Counted from the stretch's first letter, positions 710 through 16,485 are shown. The stretch: 24,000 nt of DNA from Pseudonocardiaceae bacterium YIM PH 21723 (GCA_003600225.1 QZFT01000034.1:191577-215576), one strand, 5' to 3'. Translations and numbers: made by a program. The notes: generated by a model from the sequence alone, not told the origin.

Positions 710-770
710 TTACTGATGGGGCCGGGGTGACTGGTGGTGTTCTTGTGGGTGAATGGGGTGGAGTTGTACG

Positions 771-811
771 TGGTTAAAGACGTTTTTGGGGCTGGATATC
801 GTCTTTAACCA
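771..811. repeat. AT-rich stem-loop at the centre of the large palindrome
   Basis: tggttaaagacg (771-782) pairs perfectly with cgtctttaacca (800-811), leaving the 17-nt loop tttttggggctggatat. This is locally the most AT-rich stretch in the window. Confidence 0.6.
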
Positions 812-977
812 GGAACAACGCCACTGTCCATAGTGGACCAGTCTTCAATTTGACCGACCCGCTCAGACTGCAACCCCATGATCGCCACTGCCGGTAATCC
901 GATGCACTATCGGCCGACGCAGGCCAGCCTCGACCGGCTCCCCCGACCACCCCAAGTCACCCACCACCGGACAGCCA

Positions 978-1723: not shown

Positions 1724-3699
1724 CCAGCACCCTGACCGAGGAGAAGCAGTACCTCAGTCACCGCCAAGTACTGATCGTCTTCTCCGGGCTCATGCTCGCC
1801 ATGCTGCTGGCCGCGCTGGATCAGACCATCGTGTCCTCCGCGCTGCCCACCATCGTCGGGGACCTCGGCGGGCTCACCCACCTGTCCTGGGTGGTCACCG
1901 CCTATCTCCTGGCCACCACCGTGACCACCCCGGTCTACGGCAAGATCAGCGACATCTTCGGCCGCAAACCGGTCTTCATCGTCGCCATCGGCGTGTTCCT
2001 GATCGGCTCCGCGCTGTGTGGCGCGGCGCAGTCGATGACCCAGCTGATCCTGTTCCGCGGCCTCCAGGGCGCGGGCGCCGGTGGCCTGATGGTCCTCGCG
2101 CAGGCCACCATCGCGGACATCGTCAGCCCCCGGGAACGCGGCCGCTACATGGGCCTGATCGGCGCCGTCTTCGGGCTGTCCTCGGTGATCGGGCCGCTGC
2201 TCGGCGGCTTCATCACCGACCACTACAGCTGGCGCTGGGTGTTCTACATCAACGTGCCGGTGGGTGCGGCCGCGCTGGTGGTCATCTCGCTGGTGCTCCG
2301 GCTACCCAAGCCGGACCGGCACCCGCACATCGACTACCTGGGCGCGGCGCTGGTCACCGGCGCGGTCGGCTCGCTGGTGCTGCTGCTGTCCTGGGGTGGG
2401 GTGGAGTACGCCTGGGACTCGCCGACGATCATCGGGCTCGGCGTCGGTTCGCTGGCGTTGTTCCTCGCGTTGATCTGGGCGGAAGGCCGGGCGGTGGAAC
2501 CGATCCTGCCGCCGCACCTGTTCCGGATGCGGACCTTCAACCTGTCCGCGGCGATCAGCTTCATGGTCGGCTTCGCGATGTTCGGCGCGCTGATCTTCCT
2601 GCCGAGCTTCCTGCAGCTGGTCACCGGGGCGTCGGCGACCAACTCCGGCCTGCTGATGCTGCCGCTGATGGGCGGCCTGCTGGCGGCGTCGATCACCTCC
2701 GGACAGGTGGTGTCGCGCACCGGCCGGTACAAGTGGTCACCGATCCTCGGCTCGGTGCTGGGCGCCATCGGTATGTACCTGCTGTCCACCATGGACGCGA
2801 GTACCAGCCGCACCGTGGCGAGCCTGTACATGGTGGTGCTCGGCGCGGGTATCGGCCTGACGTTGCAGGTGGTGGTGCTGGCGGTGCAGAACTCGGTGCC
2901 GGTGACCGACATCGGCACGGCCACCTCGACGATCTCGTTCGCCAGGTCCATCGGCGGCTCGCTGGGCGTGGCGATCATGGGGGCGATCTTCAGCAACCGG
3001 CTGACCACCGAACTGGCGACCCATCTGCCCGCGTCGGCCGCGAGCCAGCTGGGTGGGTCCAGCCAGCTGCCGCCGTCGGTGGTGAACGCGCTGCCGAAGG
3101 CGATCCACGACGGGTTCGTCACCGCGTACGCCAGCGCGTTGACGCCGACCTTCTTCTACGCCGTCCCGCTGATGGTGCTGGCCCTGGTGCTGGCGCTGTT
3201 CTACCGGGAGACCCCGTTGCGCGGTAAGGCCAGCGCCGTCGAGGCCACCGTGCCGGAGGCGGCCGTCATCGCGGCGGAACCGGCACCCAGGCAGCTGTGG
3301 AGCCCGCGGAAACGGGGCTGGCTCGAAGGATTCGGGGTGGCCGTCGCGGCGGCGGCGATCGCGCTGCTGATCGTCACCAATGTCGAGGAGAAGGACCGGC
3401 CGGAGCCAGTGCACTCCCCCATCGCCGCGTCCAGCGCGCCGTCCACCACGACCACCACCCCGTCGTCCGAGTCACCGTCCGCCACGCAGGCCCCGGTCCC
3501 GGCCCCGCAGGCACCGGCTCCCGCACCGGGCAAGCCGGCCTCACCGCCCACGGTGATCATCATCCAGCCGCCGGCGCAGAACCCGCCGGACCATCACCGG
3601 CCGCCCCGGCCGACCCGCACTCGACCCACCCGGCCGACCACCGAACCGCCGACCACCACGACGGCCCCCAGCAGCCAGCCGGTCACCCCTACCTCGTGA
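1720..3699 (+). CDS. MFS drug:H+ antiporter, DHA2 (EmrB/QacA-like, 14 TMS) with a long C-terminal extension
   Basis: GTG 1720 overlaps the TetR stop, with AAGGGGGA 7 nt upstream. The N-terminal motif LDQTIVSSALPTIVGDLGG and the many hydrophobic segments are typical of DHA2 transporters. The ORF-track start at 1120 is an Arg/Gly/Pro-rich shadow extension that overlaps the TetR gene. Confidence 0.9.
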   Translation: MTSTLTEEKQYLSHRQVLIVFSGLMLAMLLAALDQTIVSSALPTIVGDLGGLTHLSWVVTAYLLATTVTTPVYGKISDIFGRKPVFIVAIGVFLIGSALCGAAQSMTQLILFRGLQGAGAGGLMVLAQATIADIVSPRERGRYMGLIGAVFGLSSVIGPLLGGFITDHYSWRWVFYINVPVGAAALVVISLVLRLPKPDRHPHIDYLGAALVTGAVGSLVLLLSWGGVEYAWDSPTIIGLGVGSLALFLALIWAEGRAVEPILPPHLFRMRTFNLSAAISFMVGFAMFGALIFLPSFLQLVTGASATNSGLLMLPLMGGLLAASITSGQVVSRTGRYKWSPILGSVLGAIGMYLLSTMDASTSRTVASLYMVVLGAGIGLTLQVVVLAVQNSVPVTDIGTATSTISFARSIGGSLGVAIMGAIFSNRLTTELATHLPASAASQLGGSSQLPPSVVNALPKAIHDGFVTAYASALTPTFFYAVPLMVLALVLALFYRETPLRGKASAVEATVPEAAVIAAEPAPRQLWSPRKRGWLEGFGVAVAAAAIALLIVTNVEEKDRPEPVHSPIAASSAPSTTTTTPSSESPSATQAPVPAPQAPAPAPGKPASPPTVIIIQPPAQNPPDHHRPPRPTRTRPTRPTTEPPTTTTAPSSQPVTPTS

Positions 3700-3702
3700 G
3701 GT

Positions 3703-3757
3703 CCCGGAGTTGACGATGTTCGGACTCGTTCCTCGCGCGAACATCGTCAACTCCGGG
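3703..3757. repeat. Palindromic intergenic repeat, copy 1 (probable bidirectional terminator)
   Basis: Perfect 20-bp stem cccggagttgacgatgttcg (3703-3722) / cgaacatcgtcaactccggg (3738-3757), with 15-nt loop gactcgttcctcgcg. It fills the gap between the MFS stop (TGA 3697-3699) and the stop of the convergent gene (tca 3758-3760). Confidence 0.9.
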
Positions 3758-4129
3758 TCAGGAGTGGAACAGGCCGGTGACGCCGGTCATGGTGCCGCCT
3801 ACCAGGTCGGCGCTGCGCTGGAGGAGTTCTGCCGGGAAGCCGAGCAGGTCCGGGACGGGGGCCGGGGTGTACTCCGGCTGCGGGGAGAACCGCGGCTCCG
3901 GCAGCCGGGGTGCGGGGAGCGGGCTCCCAGTAATGGCCGTGGTGGTGGTCGTCGGGGCCACGGTGCTCGTGGCGGCCTCCGGAACCGGCTCGGTCACCGT
4001 GGTCACCGTGCCCAGCTGCGGCGTGTGGTAGCCGAGGCCGTCGAATACGGCACCCGAGGCCACGGCCGTCGACATGCCCAGCGCGGAGATCGCCCCGGCC
4101 AGCCCCAGCACCGCTGTGTTGCGCTTCAT
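3758..4129 (-). CDS. Small secreted Pro/Thr-rich protein (hypothetical, 123 aa)
   Basis: The ATG at 4129 gives MKRNTAVLGLAGAISALGMSTAVASG, a signal-peptide-like N-terminus with AVA-SG. A Thr/Pro-rich region follows. The upstream 415 codons of the 538-aa track ORF are antisense to the peptidase gene and were rejected. Confidence 0.6.
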   Translation of the reverse strand: MKRNTAVLGLAGAISALGMSTAVASGAVFDGLGYHTPQLGTVTTVTEPVPEAATSTVAPTTTTTAITGSPLPAPRLPEPRFSPQPEYTPAPVPDLLGFPAELLQRSADLVGGTMTGVTGLFHS

Positions 4130-6271: not shown

Positions 6272-7143
6272 TGCGCATCCTGTCCCTGTTGCCGGCCGCG
6301 ACCGACATCGTGGCGGAGCTGGGCCTACTACCGGACCTGGTCGGTCGCACCCACGAATGCGACTGGCCGGCCGAGGTCGCCGGGATCCCCGTGGTCACCA
6401 CCACGGGGATCGACCAGGACCGGACGAGCAGCCGGGAGATCTCCGCCGCCGTGCACCACGGCTCGGGGCTGTACGAGATGGACACCGCGCTGCTGGCCCG
6501 GCTGCGGCCGGACGTCATCCTCACCCAGGACCTGTGCTCGGTGTGCGCGATCTCGTACAGCCGGGTCACCGAGACGGTCCGGAGACTGGAGGCCTCGGCG
6601 ACCGTGCTCAGCCTGGAACCGCGCACCTTCGACGAGGTCCTGTCCTGCATGGACACCGTCGCGGACCTGCTCGGTACCTCGGCCGCCGCTCCGCTGGCCG
6701 CGTTACGGCGGCGGGTGGCGGCGGTGCGGGCGCAGGTGGCGGGCCTGCCCCGGCCACGGGTGGCGGCGATCGAATGGCTGGACCCGCTGTGGCCCGCCGG
6801 TCACTGGGTGCCGGAGCAGATCACGTACGCGGGCGGCACGCCGCTGCTGGCGCGGCCCGGCGAGCACACGTCACCGATGACCTGGGACCGGGTACTGGAG
6901 GCCCGGCCGGACGTGGTGCTGCTGCTGCCGTGCGGCTTCCCACCGGAGCGCACCCTGGCCGAGCTGCACCTGCTCACCGGGCTACCGGGCTGGGCGGAGC
7001 TCCCCCAGGTGTGGGTGCTCGATGGCCCGGCGTACTACAACCGCCCCGGTCCGCGGATCGTCCGCGGCACCGAGGTACTGGCCCGGGTGCTGCATGACGT
7101 CGGGCCGCCGATTGACGCGTCGGAGGCCCGGCGGATCCAGTGA
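6271..7143 (+). CDS. BtuF/cobalamin-binding-like periplasmic-binding-fold protein without a signal peptide
   Basis: The ATG at 6271 shares one nt with the peptidase stop (TGATG). The start [19 protein letters not shown]...[10 protein letters not shown] and later [11 protein letters not shown] resemble class III binding proteins. No N-terminal signal or lipobox is visible. The track start at 5077 is a shadow extension. Confidence 0.75.
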
Positions 7144-7158
7144 ACCGGCGACAGCGGT

Positions 7159-7213
7159 CCCGGAGTTGACGATGTTCGGGCTCGTTCCTCACGCGAACAT
7201 CGTCAACTTCGGA
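7159..7213. repeat. Palindromic intergenic repeat, copy 2
   Basis: The left arm cccggagttgacgatgttcg (7159-7178) is identical to copy 1. The right arm cgaacatcgtcaacttcgga (7194-7213) has 2 mismatches. The loop ggctcgttcctcacg matches copy 1 at 13/15 positions. It begins 15 nt after the TGA at 7141-7143. Confidence 0.9.
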
Positions 7214-7745
7214 GCAGGTGGGCGGCGGCCGCGGCGGCGCGGTCGGCGGTGGCGGGGTCGCCGGTGATGCCGGCGGTGACGATGGCGCCCTCGGCGAGGA
7301 GGTAGATCGCCTCGGCGTGGCCGGGGGCCCACTGCTGGATCTGGGCGCGGAAGGCGTCCTTGTGCGCGCGGACCTCGGCGAGCACAGCGGGCGAGCCGGG
7401 GGCGAATTCACCGTGGATGTTGATCCACGCGCAGCCCCGGAAACCGGGTTCGGCGAACCAGTTCCGGAGCCACTCGAACAACCCCGGAACCGGCTCCGGC
7501 GCTCCCGCGACAAACGCGGCCAGGCTGCCCCGCCAACGCCGGTCGCGGCGTTGCAGCATCGCCACGACGAGGTCCTCCTTGGTGCGGAACATGGCGTAGA
7601 TCCGCTTGAGCGCCAGCCCGGATTCCGCGCGGATCTGGTCCATGCCGACGGCCTGCACGCCGTGCGTGTAGACCAGTGACTCGACCGCGTCCAGCAGGGC
7701 CTCCCGGTCGGCGGCCTGCTGGCCGGCGCTGATCGCGGCGGGCAT
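7203..7745 (-). CDS. TetR/AcrR family transcriptional regulator
   Basis: 180 aa with N-terminal HTH ([43 protein letters not shown]). It is divergent from the DUF1348 gene, with palindromic operators in between. The last codons (HLLRS-stop, 7203-7220) lie inside repeat copy 2. Confidence 0.85.
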
Positions 7746-11250: not shown

Positions 11251-12317
11251 CCGCACTCAGTCTCGGTATCGAAGAAGAGTTCCTGCTGGTGGATGACCGG
11301 GGCCTGCTCTCAGCGGCGGGCCCCGGCGTCTCCGAGGCCACCGAGGTCGAGGACGGCCAGATCGAGAAGGAACTCAACGCCGTCCAGGTCGAGGCCGCCA
11401 GTTCGGCGAGCACCGACCTGGGCGCGCTGGTCGCCGAACTGGGCGATCTGCGCACCGAACTGGCCACCCAGGCCGCGCGCCGCGACGCGCGGCTGCTGCC
11501 GTGCGGGGTCGCCCCGATGCGGCGGGACGGACCGGTCCCGCTGACCCCGAAGAAACGGCACCGGGAGATCGCCGAACACTTCCGCGCCCTGGTGCAGGAG
11601 GTGCTGACCGGTTCCTGCCACGTGCACATCGGCGTCGACCGGCCGGAGGACGGCCTGCGGATCAGCAACGCCGTGCGGCCCTGGCTGCCGGTGCTGCTCG
11701 CGCTGACCGCGAACTCGCCGCTGCACGACGGCGCGGACACCGGCTACGCCTGCTGGCGACGCACCATGTGGACCCGCTGGCCGTCGGCCGGCGCCCCACC
11801 GGTGTTCGAGTCGGTCGATCACTACGAGTCCCTGGTCGCCGGGCTGCTGGACAGCGGAGCGATCCTGGACCGGGGGCAGGTCTACTGGGACATCCGGCTG
11901 TCCGCGCACCAGCCGACGGTGGAATTCCGCAGCTCCGACGTGGCCGCCGACCCGCAGGTAGCCGGGACCTACGCGGCCCTGCTGCGTGGCCTGGCCGCGC
12001 AGGCCCTGGACGACGAGACCTTCCTGGTGGTGCCCACCGCGGTGCTCACCGGGCACCTGTGGCGAGCCGGCCGCGACGGCCTGGACGGCGACTGCCTGAA
12101 CCCGCTCACCGGCGAGGTGGAACCGGCCTGGCAGGTGCTCGACGCCCTGGTCGACCGGGTGGGCTCGCGGCTGGAGGCCACCGGCGACCACGACTTCGTG
12201 GAGTCGACCCTGGCCCGGATCCGGGAACACGGCAACGGCGCGCAGCGCCAACGCCTCGTCTATGGGGAACGCAAGCAGATCACGGACGTCATCGACGACC
12301 TGGTCTGGAAGCCCTGA
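11247..12317 (+). CDS. Carboxylate-amine ligase, glutamate-cysteine ligase family 2 (YbdK-like)
   Basis: 356 aa. The N-terminal LGIEEEFLLVD motif, the later CHVHIGV and the NSP...G pattern are typical of GCS2/YbdK. Confidence 0.85.
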   Translation: MTALSLGIEEEFLLVDDRGLLSAAGPGVSEATEVEDGQIEKELNAVQVEAASSASTDLGALVAELGDLRTELATQAARRDARLLPCGVAPMRRDGPVPLTPKKRHREIAEHFRALVQEVLTGSCHVHIGVDRPEDGLRISNAVRPWLPVLLALTANSPLHDGADTGYACWRRTMWTRWPSAGAPPVFESVDHYESLVAGLLDSGAILDRGQVYWDIRLSAHQPTVEFRSSDVAADPQVAGTYAALLRGLAAQALDDETFLVVPTAVLTGHLWRAGRDGLDGDCLNPLTGEVEPAWQVLDALVDRVGSRLEATGDHDFVESTLARIREHGNGAQRQRLVYGERKQITDVIDDLVWKP

Positions 12318-12362
12318 ACGTGGTTTTCAGGCCCATCGATGGGCCTGAAAACCACGTTCAGG
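12313..12362. terminator. 50-bp perfect palindrome between convergent genes (probable bidirectional terminator)
   Basis: cctgaacgtggttttcaggcccatc | gatgggcctgaaaaccacgttcagg is perfectly self-complementary about the atcgat centre. It overlaps the GCS2 stop (12315-12317) and ends 3 nt before the stop of the minus-strand FN3 gene (12366-12368). Confidence 0.7.
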
Positions 12363-15543: not shown

Positions 15544-16340
15544 GTACCCTGCTCGCGGTACACGCCCACCCGGACGACGAGTCGACGAGCACCGGCGGCA
15601 CGCTGGCGCGGTACGCGGATCTCGGGGTGCGCACGGTGCTGGTCACCTGTACCAACGGCGAGCTCGGGGACAGTCCCAGTGGGGCGAAACCGGGGCAGCC
15701 GGGGCACGACATCGCCGAGGTGATCTCGACCCGGCGCGGCGAGTTGGAGCAGGCGTGCCGCATCCTGGGCGTCGGTGATTCGGAGATGCTCGGCTATCAC
15801 GACTCCGGCATGCGCGACTGGGGCTACCGTGATCGTCCGGATGTCTTCGCCTCCCGTCCGGTGGCCGAGGTGGCCGACCGGATCGAGGCCCTGCTGCTGC
15901 ACCACCAGCCGGAGGTGGTGATCACCTACGACCCGGAGAACGACCGTCAGCACGTGGACCATCTGCATGCCGCCCTCGCCACGGCGGCCGCGGTGGCCCG
16001 GCTGGCCGCACCGCCCGCGTTGTTCTTCAAGGCGCACGGCACCCGCTACTGGGCGGGCATCCGCACCGCGCTGGGGGTGATCGGGGTGCACCGGCCGGAG
16101 CCGGAGCCCGCCGCGGCCGCCTTCTACGCGGAGACCGAGCGGCGGATCACCACCTCGCTGGACGTGTCGGCGGTGATCGACCGCAAGTACGCCGCGCTGC
16201 ACGCGCATCGCAGCCAGATCGCGAGCTCCTCGGCGGGCCGGTTGCCCATGCCGCTGTTCGCCCAGGCGCTCAACCCGGAGACCTACATCCGCTCCGGCGC
16301 CACCGCCGACGGCCGCCTGGAGACCGACCTCTTCAGCTGA
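15540..16340 (+). CDS. PIG-L family deacetylase (MshB/Mca-like)
   Basis: The ATG at 15540 overlaps the CBS stop. The protein has the AVHAHPDDE metal-binding motif near the N-terminus and a later HVDH motif. The upstream part of the track ORF (15063-) is a shadow extension. Confidence 0.85.
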   Translation: MSTLLAVHAHPDDESTSTGGTLARYADLGVRTVLVTCTNGELGDSPSGAKPGQPGHDIAEVISTRRGELEQACRILGVGDSEMLGYHDSGMRDWGYRDRPDVFASRPVAEVADRIEALLLHHQPEVVITYDPENDRQHVDHLHAALATAAAVARLAAPPALFFKAHGTRYWAGIRTALGVIGVHRPEPEPAAAAFYAETERRITTSLDVSAVIDRKYAALHAHRSQIASSSAGRLPMPLFAQALNPETYIRSGATADGRLETDLFS

Positions 16341-16342
16341 GT

Positions 16343-16405
16343 CCCGGAGTTGACGATGTTCGGCTGCCAGGAAATCCATGCGGCCCGAACATCGTCAACT
16401 CCGGA
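16343..16405. repeat. Palindromic intergenic repeat, copy 3
   Basis: The left arm cccggagttgacgatgttcg (16343-16362) is identical to copies 1 and 2. The right arm cgaacatcgtcaactccgg (16386-16404) is perfect over 19 bp. The loop is different and longer (about 21-23 nt, ggctgccaggaaatccatgcggc). It starts 2 nt after the TGA at 16338-16340. Confidence 0.9.
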
Positions 16406-16485
16406 GCCACCGGCCACGAGAAAGATCGGAACGGATCTGTTCGGCGGATGGCCGGCTCGCCGGTCCCCGTGGATATGCTCGGCGG

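What the first reader, a model, noticed from the sequence alone, without database searches (positions are those of the whole stretch)
3703..3757. Uncharacterised palindromic repeat family: three copies in 24 kb, each immediately after a stop codon
The 20-nt arm CCCGGAGTTGACGATGTTCG and its complement occur at 3703-3757, 7159-7213 and 16343-16405. The left arms are identical in all three copies. The loops of copies 1 and 2 match at 13/15 positions, while copy 3 has an unrelated, longer loop. Each copy begins 2-15 nt after a plus-strand stop codon. The arms are AT-richer than the genome and would form a 19-20-bp RNA duplex, long enough to be an RNase III substrate. This looks like a REP/MITE-like element acting as a terminator or mRNA-stability module. 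I do not recognise it as a named family.
Basis: seen in the sequence. Interest (0 to 1): 0.6.

Follow-up and report, generated by a model that had tools for sequence, protein, structure and literature searches.

The report
Genome-wide hairpin repeat after stop codons
The three hairpins belong to a family of about 420 small mobile palindromic repeats, found only in this Pseudonocardiaceae genome, that lie a few bases after stop codons and probably shape mRNA 3' ends; the commonest form also sits in front of a multicopy DUF222-HNH nuclease gene.

Summary
The 20-nt arm and its complement occur at the three stated sites. Genome-wide there are 839-884 arm matches: 362 complete hairpins plus many cut by contig ends, about 420 elements in 7.6 Mb.

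The family is at background level in 200 genomes from 60 genera of the same family. The element is polar, about 61-63 nt, with conserved co-varying arms and a variable tip.

- **It is inserted DNA.** Orthologues of a NirB-type reductase lack an in-frame copy, and NRPS domains carry independent in-frame copies.
- **Placement is highly non-random.** 163 copies lie between convergent genes, 148 between same-strand genes and 7 between divergent genes. The median distance from stop codon to element is 8 nt, and orientation follows the upstream gene (87 vs 22).
- **It is not a classical REP or terminator.** There is no U-tract, target duplication, RAYT, TnpB or GTAG tag.
- **It is not alone.** At least eight other palindromic repeat families share the niche.
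- **New lead.** The commonest variant lies 86 nt upstream of a 12-14-copy DUF222-HNH (13E12-type) nuclease gene.

Earlier scan notes describe similar stop-codon hairpin repeats and DUF222-HNH/palindrome pairings in other genomes, but not this sequence.

The parts
3701..3759 (-). Copy 1 of the family-1 hairpin. Arms 3703-3722 and 3738-3757, 15-nt loop, master polarity on the minus strand. It fills the gap between two convergent stop codons.
   Evidence: MFS gene stop at 3697-3699; stop of the minus-strand ORF 3758-4129 at 3758-3760.
7159..7213 (-). Copy 2. Arms 7159-7178 and 7194-7213, 15-nt loop, C..A outer pair on the plus strand. It lies between a periplasmic-binding-protein gene and a convergent TetR gene.
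   Evidence: Pfam hits for the flanking genes.
7203..7205 (-). Stop codon of the TetR gene (7203-7745, minus strand), supplied by the TGA inside the arm motif GTTGAC. The last codons of the gene are repeat-derived.
   Evidence: The same arrangement (stop at -11 from the arm edge) occurs 27 times genome-wide.
16341..16407 (-). Copy 3. Arms 16343-16362 and 16386-16405, 23-nt loop of the long-loop subfamily. It lies between the same-strand PIG-L deacetylase and CHAT-domain genes, in the minority orientation for that context.
   Evidence: Gene calls.
3697..3699 (+). Stop codon of the MFS transporter gene, 3 nt before the arm of copy 1.
7141..7143 (+). Stop codon of the periplasmic-binding-protein gene, 15 nt before the arm of copy 2.
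16338..16340 (+). Stop codon of the PIG-L family gene, 2 nt before the arm of copy 3.
12313..12362 (.). A member of a different palindromic repeat family (family 8, 39 copies) in the same niche, between convergent stop codons.
763..819 (.). A member of palindromic repeat family 9 (27 copies). Eighteen members, this one included, lie in a non-coding composite repeat of about 400-550 nt.

Best explanation
The three hairpins are copies of a polar, palindromic, non-autonomous repeat of about 61-63 nt. It has expanded to roughly 420 copies in this one isolated lineage of Pseudonocardiaceae.

**Shown**
- It is inserted DNA.
- Copies share a polar master sequence: a 20-nt arm with a T..G outer pair and the loop CGGCGAGGAACGAGCCC.
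- Copies survive almost only within a few bases downstream of stop codons, mainly between convergent genes.
- In same-strand gene pairs they keep a preferred orientation relative to the upstream gene.
- Two of three reading frames through the element are open. The third supplies a TGA, so copies that land in gene ends or surface loops are tolerated.

**Inferred**
- Once transcribed as the tail of the upstream mRNA, the element forms a 21-23-bp stem without a U-tract.
- That stem defines or protects the mRNA 3' end, either as a block to 3' exonucleases or as an RNase III processing site. It also insulates convergent transcription units from each other.
- It is therefore not a canonical intrinsic terminator.
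- The spacing of about 6-9 nt after the stop is what would let a terminating ribosome reach the stop without melting the stem (from general knowledge of the ribosome footprint).

**Unknown**
- The enzyme that spreads it. The only lead is that the master variant sits in the leader of a multicopy DUF222-HNH nuclease unit.
For: - **Copy number and specificity.** 884 arm matches against 12 in a control, and 362 paired units. 839 arm matches here against at most 36 in 200 genomes from 60 genera of the same family. The exact hairpin occurs 190 times here and 0 times in 40 relatives. 75 of 222 contig ends lie at an arm.
- **Insertion.** A NirB-type protein has an insert of about 22 residues that five orthologues lack. 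There are in-frame copies in NRPS adenylation domains, the NirB-type reductase and a carboxyltransferase. Three independent insertions hit the same NRPS loop.
- **Polarity.** The outer pair T..G or C..A tracks loop orientation, 56:3 and 48:9.
- **Placement.** 163 convergent, 148 same-strand and 7 divergent, against 45, 176 and 97 expected from intergenic length; chi-square p about 1e-86. The distance from stop to arm has median 8 nt and interquartile range 5-12 nt; the distance to a downstream start has median 90 nt.
- **Orientation.** T..G on the sense strand of the upstream gene in 87 of 109 cases, p = 2.5e-10. This holds even when the gene runs against the local majority strand.
- **Generic niche.** 71% of convergent gaps without the element still hold a stem of at least 10 bp, a median 7-8 nt from the stops, against 1% after shuffling and 9% in divergent gaps. 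44% of convergent gaps of at least 20 nt hold a hairpin of families 1-9.
- **Stable folds** on both strands.
- **Analogy.** TRIT in Mycobacterium has 147 copies, is palindromic, has a narrow position at stop codons and is confined to one genus (PMC3152330). RNA 3' ends map inside it with an RNase III-like pattern (PMC13714241).
Against:
- Single-arm substitutions show no excess of G.U over C.A on the sense strand (39 vs 33, p = 0.56). There is thus no direct sign of selection on the sense RNA hairpin, although the test has low power.
- The arm co-variation can be explained by several master copies, without selection at each site.
- Placement and orientation could result from purifying selection against harmful insertions alone.
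- No U-tract follows the stem.
- Term-seq in M. tuberculosis found little overlap between TRIT and termination sites (bioRxiv 10.1101/2022.06.01.494293).
- Gene positions come from my own codon-bias gene caller, not a curated annotation.
Confidence: 0.6

Rival explanations
1. The element is purely selfish or neutral mobile DNA with no role for the host. It inserts widely. Copies in promoters and inside genes are removed by selection, leaving those just after stop codons, in gaps between convergent genes, and in-frame copies in tolerant protein loops.
For: - In-frame copies in coding regions, and two copies that fuse adjacent ORFs, show that insertion is not limited to gene ends.
- There is no strand-specific wobble signal.
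- Eight other palindrome families behave alike.
- The family is absent from all sampled relatives, so it cannot be essential.
Against: - The distance to the stop codon is very narrow (5-12 nt for half of all cases). Convergent gaps occupy only about 15% of intergenic length yet hold 51% of copies.
- The 80:20 orientation bias towards the upstream gene needs an added explanation.
- Non-repeat hairpins occupy the same position in most other convergent gaps, which points to a selected niche.
Confidence: 0.25
2. The hairpin is the cis-acting site of the DUF222-HNH nuclease encoded next to its master copies. This would be a REPtron-like pair in which an HNH nuclease, not a RAYT transposase, recognises or cuts the hairpin and spreads solo copies in trans. 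This is compatible with the copies also serving as RNA 3'-end hairpins.
For: - Fourteen family-1 hairpins lie inside a 1.43-kb repeated unit, always 86 nt upstream of a 389-aa DUF222 protein and in one orientation, in the commonest (master) form.
- The protein matches DUF222 (PF02720) at E = 9e-39. Its HNH motif matches the IscB and McrA HNH domains by profile.
- Family 1 is the only palindrome family tied to a protein-coding unit, and it is by far the largest.
- The units are inserted -7 to +50 nt after the stop of an upstream same-strand gene in 8 of 9 cases, the same niche as the solo hairpins.
- No other candidate enzyme was found.
- Unverified scan notes report DUF222-HNH beside palindromes in other genomes.
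Against: - DUF222-HNH genes are multicopy in many relatives, but their leaders lack long hairpins, so the pairing is not a family trait.
- A single hairpin insertion into an ancestral leader, co-amplified with the unit, explains the data equally well. The master variant is about a fifth of all copies, so a passenger would often carry it.
- The hairpin is internal to the unit, about 110 nt from its left boundary, and not at its end.
- The DUF222 fold has no recognisable DNA-binding relative in the PDB.
- No mechanism is known by which an HNH nuclease would disperse a 60-nt hairpin without homology.
Confidence: 0.2
3. The element acts at the DNA level. As a cruciform or a protein-binding inverted repeat between convergent genes, it would recruit gyrase or a nucleoid protein to relieve transcription-driven supercoiling, as proposed for REP/BIME elements in E. 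coli.
For: - The strong excess between convergent genes, where positive supercoils accumulate (general knowledge).
- Arms far better conserved than the tip.
- Symmetry of arm mismatches between the two strands.
Against: - Nine families with unrelated arm sequences share the niche, which argues against one sequence-specific protein.
- Loop length varies from 9 to 28 nt.
- The orientation bias relative to the upstream gene and the tight spacing to stop codons fit an RNA-level or translation-linked constraint better.
Confidence: 0.08
4. The element is a canonical Rho-independent (intrinsic) bidirectional terminator that happens to be repeated.
For: A stable G+C-containing stem directly after stop codons, on both strands.
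Against: - No U-tract. In 90% of cases the longest T run within 12 nt downstream is 2 or less.
- The stem of 20-23 bp is much longer than typical terminators.
- From my own recollection and not checked here: Czyz and colleagues (mBio 2014) reported that mycobacterial RNA polymerase needs a U-tract at intrinsic terminators.
Confidence: 0.04

Closest known systems
TRIT (Tuberculosis Rho-independent terminator motif) of Mycobacterium (Gardner et al. 2011, PMC3152330)
   Same: - An actinobacterial, sequence-conserved palindromic hairpin, dispersed in 100-plus copies.
- Largely bidirectional, with a very narrow position relative to the nearest stop codon.
- Restricted to one genus-level lineage and with no known mobilising enzyme.
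- Now thought to shape 3' ends through RNase III and not to terminate transcription (PMC13714241).
   Different: - The sequence is unrelated: the arm and hairpin searches returned only background-level matches in the other families of the order that were sampled.
- TRIT mostly overlaps the end of the coding sequence (about -8), whereas this element mostly starts 4-8 nt after the stop.
- This element has about three times more copies, a variable tip, documented in-frame coding insertions and a link to a DUF222-HNH unit.
- I had no TRIT model, so homology was not tested directly.
REP / REPIN elements with RAYT transposases (REPtrons), as surveyed in PMC3733652 and PMC2817692
   Same: - Small dispersed extragenic palindromes in hundreds of copies, specific to a species.
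- Several families per genome, found at gene 3' ends, with no target duplication.
- Occasionally intragenic.
- A multicopy gene carries a copy next to it.
   Different: - No RAYT or any IS200/IS605 gene.
- No GTAG or CGTC end tag, and no doublet or BIME arrangement.
- The stem is about twice as long (20-23 bp).
- The neighbouring gene is an HNH nuclease with one upstream copy, not a Y1 transposase flanked by copies.
Rickettsia palindromic elements (RPE)
   Same: Palindromic repeats that insert in frame into protein-coding genes and add a peptide segment to otherwise conserved proteins. They also have no dedicated transposase (as discussed for the CGTC-tagged repeats in PMC3733652).
   Different: RPEs are 100-150 nt and frequently intragenic. 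Here only about 2-6% of copies are intragenic, and most lie just after stop codons.
Correia repeat-enclosed elements (CREE/NEMIS) of Neisseria
   Same: A high-copy hairpin-forming repeat, co-transcribed with neighbouring genes and processed by RNase III, which affects 3' ends (PMC13714241).
   Different: Correia elements are true MITEs of 100-155 nt, with terminal inverted repeats and a TA target duplication (from my own knowledge). This element has no target duplication and is a single compact hairpin.
REP13E12 / 13E12 repeat family (DUF222-HNH) of Mycobacterium tuberculosis
   Same: The gene beside the master copies is a DUF222 plus HNH protein in a multicopy unit of about 1.4 kb, like REP13E12 (PMC10589994, PMC13157036).
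   Different: No dispersed hairpin has been reported for REP13E12 in the papers I could search. The nearest public homologue of this protein is only 39% identical.

Membership tests
REP/RAYT (REPIN, REPtron) | A short imperfect palindrome, extragenic, in more than 100 copies per genome | tested here: met
   362 paired hairpins plus about 60 cut by contig ends; 318 of 362 are intergenic. At 55-63 nt, the element is longer than the usual 20-40 nt.
REP/RAYT (REPIN, REPtron) | A GTAG (or CGTC) tetranucleotide at one end (PMC3733652) | tested here: not met
   GTAG occurs in 6 and CGTC in 46 of 724 terminal 10-nt windows. The ends read G-G-Y-T-CCGAAG.
REP/RAYT (REPIN, REPtron) | A cognate RAYT (Y1 HUH transposase) gene flanked by the repeats | tested here: not met
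   PF01797 has no match in the genome (97.7% complete) while the control genomes were detected. There is also no IS605 OrfB.
REP/RAYT (REPIN, REPtron) | Inverted doublets (REPINs) or BIME-type arrays | tested here: not met
   Only 7 of 283 neighbouring pairs lie within 150 nt; the median spacing is 8.6 kb.
MITE (deletion derivative of a DDE-type IS) | Target-site duplication flanking each copy | tested here: not met
   Flanking 2-6-mers match no more often than chance at four boundary offsets.
MITE (deletion derivative of a DDE-type IS) | A parent IS with the same terminal inverted repeats | tested here: not met
   No transposase gene is bounded by arms within 6 kb. The only coding unit that holds the hairpin has it internally and only on one side. 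The assembly is fragmented, so a collapsed IS cannot be fully excluded.
TRIT (Mycobacterium) | Match to the TRIT sequence and structure motif | not testable with these tools
   TRIT gave no Rfam match and I had no TRIT model. The arm and hairpin were not found above background in the 16 other families of the order that were sampled.
TRIT (Mycobacterium) | A conserved palindromic hairpin with a narrow position at stop codons and restricted to one lineage | tested here: met
   The position is centred about +8 from the stop to the 20-nt arm, against about -8 for TRIT (PMC3152330).
Canonical intrinsic terminator | A G+C-rich stem followed by a U-tract | tested here: not met
   In 90% of 474 downstream flanks the longest T run within 12 nt is 2 or less.
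RPE-like in-frame palindromic insertions | Copies inserted in frame within conserved protein-coding genes and absent from orthologues | tested here: met
   NirB-type protein compared with five orthologues. NRPS, carboxyltransferase and NirB-type domains are interrupted in frame, with codon bias kept on both sides.
DUF222-HNH (13E12 repeat family), for the neighbouring gene | A DUF222 domain plus a C-terminal HNH nuclease motif, in a multicopy gene | tested here: met
   PF02720 at E = 9e-39. An HNH signature in the sequence, with profile matches to the IscB and McrA HNH domains at E about 1e-4. About 12 full copies at 93-100% amino-acid identity.
Integron attC sites | Arrays of same-orientation cassettes next to an integron integrase, with R/L core sites | tested here: not met
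   Copies are dispersed (median spacing 8.6 kb), occur in both orientations and lie between housekeeping genes. The arm motif GTTGACG does not fit GTTRRRY. An integrase gene was not searched for.

The most novel reading that the evidence does not exclude
The hairpin family and the DUF222-HNH gene form a cognate pair. The nuclease would recognise the hairpin that sits in its own leader and spread or maintain solo copies across the genome. That would be an HNH-based counterpart of the RAYT/REP system, and it would give the long-unexplained 13E12 (DUF222-HNH) repeat proteins of actinobacteria a substrate and a function.
Probability: 0.18. Interest if true: 0.8.

Novelty: new member of a known kind. 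Interest (0 to 1): 0.5.

Why it matters
- **Annotation.** The family explains a large share of this genome's intergenic architecture. 44% of convergent gaps of at least 20 nt hold a hairpin from one of nine repeat families. The repeat also causes assembly breaks (a third of contig ends), misleading start codons, repeat-encoded C-termini and ORF fusions.
- **Biology.** It is a second, larger and cleaner actinobacterial case of the TRIT phenomenon: sequence-conserved hairpins placed with near-codon precision after stop codons. It offers hundreds of natural replicates for testing how 3' ends are made in high-G+C bacteria that lack U-tract terminators.
- **The nuclease link.** The physical link between the master variant and a multicopy DUF222-HNH nuclease is a concrete, testable lead on how such orphan hairpin families spread and on what 13E12-type proteins do.

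Tried and rejected
- **Collection scan for the 19-mer**.
- **Exact look-up of a window protein**. Not on record.
- **Rfam**. Nothing at gathering thresholds; at permissive thresholds only generic long-hairpin (miRNA-like) noise.
- **Metagenome scan**. Three contigs share the inner 14-nt arm, but their outer bases differ. Each is a single copy directly upstream of a small gene with no Pfam match, in an organism unrelated to this genome. I judged them not to be members of the family.
- **Plasmid collection**. No match.
- **Wobble-asymmetry test for RNA-level selection**. Negative.
- **Orientation against probable replication direction**. In same-strand pairs, orientation follows transcription, not the local majority strand. 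There is only a borderline association in convergent gaps (37 vs 21, p = 0.048).
- **Paralogous empty sites from joined flanks**. No clean empty site was found, but the search uncovered the DUF222-HNH unit.
- **Leader hairpins upstream of DUF222-HNH genes in relatives**. Not a general feature.
- **Fold of the DUF222-HNH protein**. The model is confident (pLDDT 83.5) but has no significant PDB neighbour.
- **One script timed out** and was redone more simply.
- **Considered and rejected:**
  - Integron attC sites, because the copies are dispersed and in both orientations.
  - A LexA/SOS box, because the half-sites are in the wrong order and spacing.
  - A transcription-factor operator, because there are 420 copies at gene ends with variable spacing.
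  - CRISPR, because there are no arrays.

Full report
**1. The observation.**
The sites are 3703-3722/3738-3757, 7159-7178/7194-7213 and 16343-16362/16386-16405. That is six matches against none expected in 100 shuffles.

The three left arms are identical, and the loops of copies 1 and 2 agree at 13 of 15 positions. Each copy follows a plus-strand stop codon by 3, 15 and 2 nt. Each folds into a 19-21-bp stem on either strand, at -32 to -50 kcal/mol and z -4.6 to -8.6. No Rfam family matches.

**2. Genome-wide census.**
The window lies on contig C24 of a 7.61-Mb assembly with 68.1% G+C and 111 contigs.

- Allowing up to 4 mismatches to the family consensus arm gives 884 arm matches, against 12 in a reversed-sequence control.
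- These form 362 complete hairpins plus 160 unpaired arms.
- 56 of the unpaired arms lie within 150 nt of a contig end, and 75 of 222 contig ends lie within 130 nt of an arm.
- The repeat therefore broke the assembly, and the true number is about 420.

Position frequencies and an alignment of 16 copies show that the conserved block runs about 3 nt beyond the 20-mer on each side, as G-G-Y-T...G-R-C-C. The full element is about 61-63 nt.

**3. Anatomy.**
- **Arms.** They are highly conserved and co-vary. Position 10 is A/A in 220 units, G/G in 124 and mixed in 17. Positions 14, 15 and 6 behave alike.
- **Tip.** It is variable, with loop lengths of 9-17 nt and a few of 23-28 nt. The commonest loop is the 17-mer CGGCGAGGAACGAGCCC.
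- **Polarity.** The outermost pair is T..G on one strand, and so C..A on the other. This tracks the loop orientation at 56:3 and 48:9. All copies therefore descend from a polar master sequence and are not independently evolved hairpins.
- **Copy 3.** Its long loop belongs to a subfamily of about seven members.
- **Window copies.** All three have the master polarity on the minus strand.

**4. The element is inserted DNA.**
Twenty-one copies fall inside called ORFs. Eight of those lie at least 60 nt from either end of the ORF and are in frame, with codon bias maintained on both sides.

- Pfam places six of them inside real domains: NRPS adenylation domains (four copies), a NirB-type nitrite reductase and a carboxyltransferase.
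- Two more bridge what look like formerly separate units: two ABC half-transporters, and two TetR units.
- The NirB-type protein, aligned with five orthologues of about 70% identity from other genera, has an insert of about 22 residues that all of them lack.
- Three NRPS insertions lie at the same permissive loop, about 7 residues before the AYVIYTSGSTG motif. They differ in arm subfamily, loop and orientation, so they are independent events.
- Read from either strand, the element is open in two of three frames. The third frame meets the TGA in GTTGAC.
- That TGA serves as the stop codon of a flanking gene 27 times genome-wide, including the TetR gene at 7203-7745 in the window.

**5. Placement.**
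I called genes with a codon-bias model, giving 6,975 genes and 85% coding. The window calls agree with Pfam.

| Context of the 318 intergenic copies | Observed | Expected from intergenic length |
|---|---|---|
| Convergent genes | 163 | 45 |
| Same-strand genes | 148 | 176 |
| Divergent genes | 7 | 97 |

The chi-square p value is about 1e-86.

- The distance from a facing stop codon to the 20-nt arm has a median of 8 nt and an interquartile range of 5-12 nt.
- The distance to a downstream start has a median of 90 nt.
- No conserved flank explains this spacing, and there is no target-site duplication.
- In same-strand pairs the T..G form is on the sense strand of the upstream gene in 87 of 109 cases, p = 2.5e-10.
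- That bias follows the gene even where it opposes the local majority strand, so it tracks transcription and not replication.

**6. The niche is generic and this genome is unusual.**
- Convergent gaps of 20-200 nt without the element hold a stem of at least 10 bp in 71% of cases. The figure is 1% after shuffling and 9% in divergent gaps.
- The base of those stems lies a median of 7-8 nt from each stop.
- In a 400-kb sample of a complete relative genome, only 26% of convergent gaps do so.
- A de novo census found 1,917 hairpins with an exact stem of at least 11 bp. Twelve families have at least 5 members.
- This element is the largest family at about 370 members. Eight further families have 27-87 copies.
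- All are 45-60 nt long and 46-61% G+C, favour convergent and same-strand gaps, and avoid divergent ones.
- 44% of convergent gaps of at least 20 nt hold a hairpin from one of these nine families.
- The window also contains a family-8 copy (12313-12362) and a family-9 copy (763-819).

**7. Distribution.**
- The exact hairpin occurs 190 times here and not at all in 40 relatives.
- The arm with up to 3 mismatches gives 839 matches here, against at most 36 (background) in 200 genomes from 60 genera of the same family.
- Names attached to NirB homologues identify that family as Pseudonocardiaceae.
- The genus has no other representative in the collection, and the proteins I queried have no close public relative.
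- No paper in the searchable library contains the arm sequence.

**8. What it is not.**
- There is no RAYT and no IS605 OrfB. The IS91-type Y2 transposase search also found nothing, but its control was silent, so that result is inconclusive.
- Two IS110-type genes exist but are not near copies.
- There is no GTAG or CGTC end tag and no doublet or BIME organisation.
- No parent IS is bounded by the arms.
- There is no U-tract: the longest T run within 12 nt downstream is 2 or less in 90% of flanks.

It is therefore not REP proper, not a classical MITE and not a canonical intrinsic terminator.

**9. The DUF222-HNH unit.**
Searching joined flanks for empty sites instead revealed loci whose flanks resemble one another. 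They define a repeated unit of about 1.43 kb, with at least 12 full copies and several truncated ones. Read in the direction of the gene, the unit consists of:

1. a conserved left module of about 110 nt;
2. a junction prone to insertions and deletions;
3. the hairpin in its master form, with T..G on the gene's sense strand;
4. 86 conserved nt;
5. a 389-aa ORF, with the unit ending exactly at its stop codon.

The protein matches DUF222 (PF02720) at E = 9e-39. Its C-terminal HNH signature matches the HNH domains of IscB and McrA by profile.

DUF222 is the 13E12 repeat family of M. tuberculosis (REP13E12). Its proteins are induced by DNA damage and associated with recombination breakpoints, and their function is unknown (PMC10589994, PMC13157036).

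- Family 1 is the only palindrome family tied to a coding unit. The others sit in non-coding composite repeats of 300-550 nt.
- The units themselves lie -7 to +50 nt after the stop of an upstream same-strand gene in 8 of 9 cases.

Evidence against a cognate relationship:
- DUF222-HNH genes are multicopy in many relatives, but their leaders lack long hairpins.
- The nearest public homologue is only 39% identical.
- A confident structure model (pLDDT 83.5) has no significant PDB neighbour.

The pairing may therefore be a passenger that was co-amplified with the unit. I rate the cognate-nuclease reading at about 0.2.

**10. Mechanism.**
Shown:
- a polar master sequence;
- insertion;
- survival just after stop codons;
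- orientation that follows the upstream gene;
- stable folding;
- no U-tract.

Inferred:
- The element is transcribed as the tail of the upstream mRNA and forms a 21-23-bp stem.
- That stem blocks 3' exonucleases or is cut by RNase III, which fixes the 3' end and insulates convergent units. Genes with an RNase III domain are present.
- The closest analogue, TRIT, was first called a terminator (PMC3152330).
- TRIT shows little overlap with Term-seq termination sites (bioRxiv 10.1101/2022.06.01.494293).
- RNA 3' ends map inside TRIT with an RNase III-like dual pattern (PMC13714241).

A sequence-only test for RNA-level selection compared G.U with C.A among single-arm substitutions on the sense strand. 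It was negative at 39 vs 33. The arm co-variation is therefore better read as several master copies. A purely selfish reading, with placement explained by purifying selection alone, remains viable at about 0.25.

**11. Earlier notes of this scan.**
- Notes on this window agree about the TetR C-terminus and about the misleading start codon at copy 3.
- They treat the 50-bp palindrome at 12313-12362 as unrelated to the three-copy family. I find that it belongs to a separate 39-copy family.
- Notes on other genomes describe stop-codon-abutting hairpin families and several DUF222-HNH/palindrome pairings. None concerns this sequence.
- All of these are unverified leads. One of them, the ParB-like fold, was not reproduced here.

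**12. Verdict.**
The interpretation as a REP/MITE-like repeat is supported in kind but not as membership of those families. The functional reading is plausible but untested. The family is a new, lineage-specific member of the known class of small palindromic dispersed repeats and is closest in behaviour to TRIT. Its link to a DUF222-HNH unit is an added, testable lead.

Noticed in passing
window 12313-12362: The 50-bp perfect palindrome between the convergent stop codons of the genes ending at 12317 and 12366 is not unique. It belongs to a separate palindromic repeat family (family 8, 39 copies; core CTGAACGTGGCTTTCAGG).
   Followed up: partly
window 763-819 (within the non-coding stretch at about 264-1162): This hairpin belongs to family 9 (27 copies). 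Eighteen members, this one included, are embedded in a non-coding composite repeat of about 400-550 nt. The odd ~900-bp non-coding region therefore includes a copy of that composite repeat.
   Followed up: partly
own genome, e.g. L077-L085 (C19:45700-47800 and eight other loci): A repeated unit of about 1.43 kb encodes a 389-aa DUF222-HNH (13E12-type) nuclease. There are at least 12 full copies at 93-100% amino-acid identity plus truncated ones, each with the master hairpin 86 nt upstream of the start. About 25 more distant DUF222 paralogues form their own multicopy groups.
   Followed up: yes
own genome, L027 (C45:26986-30651) and L028 (C24:260471-261610): In two cases the element lies in frame between what look like two formerly separate genes (two ABC half-transporters; two TetR units). 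It gives one continuous ORF with no stop, so the repeat may have fused neighbouring genes.
   Followed up: partly
own genome, C62:26160-26345: A head-to-tail array of at least four same-strand copies of one arm with a 40-nt period (arm plus GGGGCCAGCACGCCAGGACCA) and no complementary arm. It is a tandem repeat built from half-elements.
   Followed up: no
L051:731-780, L052:789-833, L053:641-690 (metagenome contigs): Single palindromes share the same inner 14-nt arm (GTTGACGATGTTCG) but have different outer bases. Each lies directly upstream of a small gene with no Pfam match, in an organism unrelated to this genome. They look like operators. A 28-nt identity is unlikely to be chance, but the relation to the family is unknown.
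   Followed up: partly
L083 (C90:6500-8600), just left of the hairpin: In one DUF222-HNH unit the junction next to the hairpin carries a tandem expansion of the 9-mer AGGTTCTCT. The other copies have deletions of varying length there, so the flank of the hairpin is a hotspot for insertions and deletions.
   Followed up: no
whole assembly: 75 of 222 contig ends lie within 130 nt of a family-1 arm, so this repeat is a major cause of the assembly's fragmentation. Contig C10 (1,451 nt) is a collapsed IS110-type element.
   Followed up: partly
window 3758-4129, minus strand: A 123-aa ORF with coding-type codon bias and no Pfam match ends exactly at the right edge of copy 1. The longer 538-aa reading of this frame overlaps the real S9 peptidase gene on the other strand and is spurious.
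   Followed up: partly
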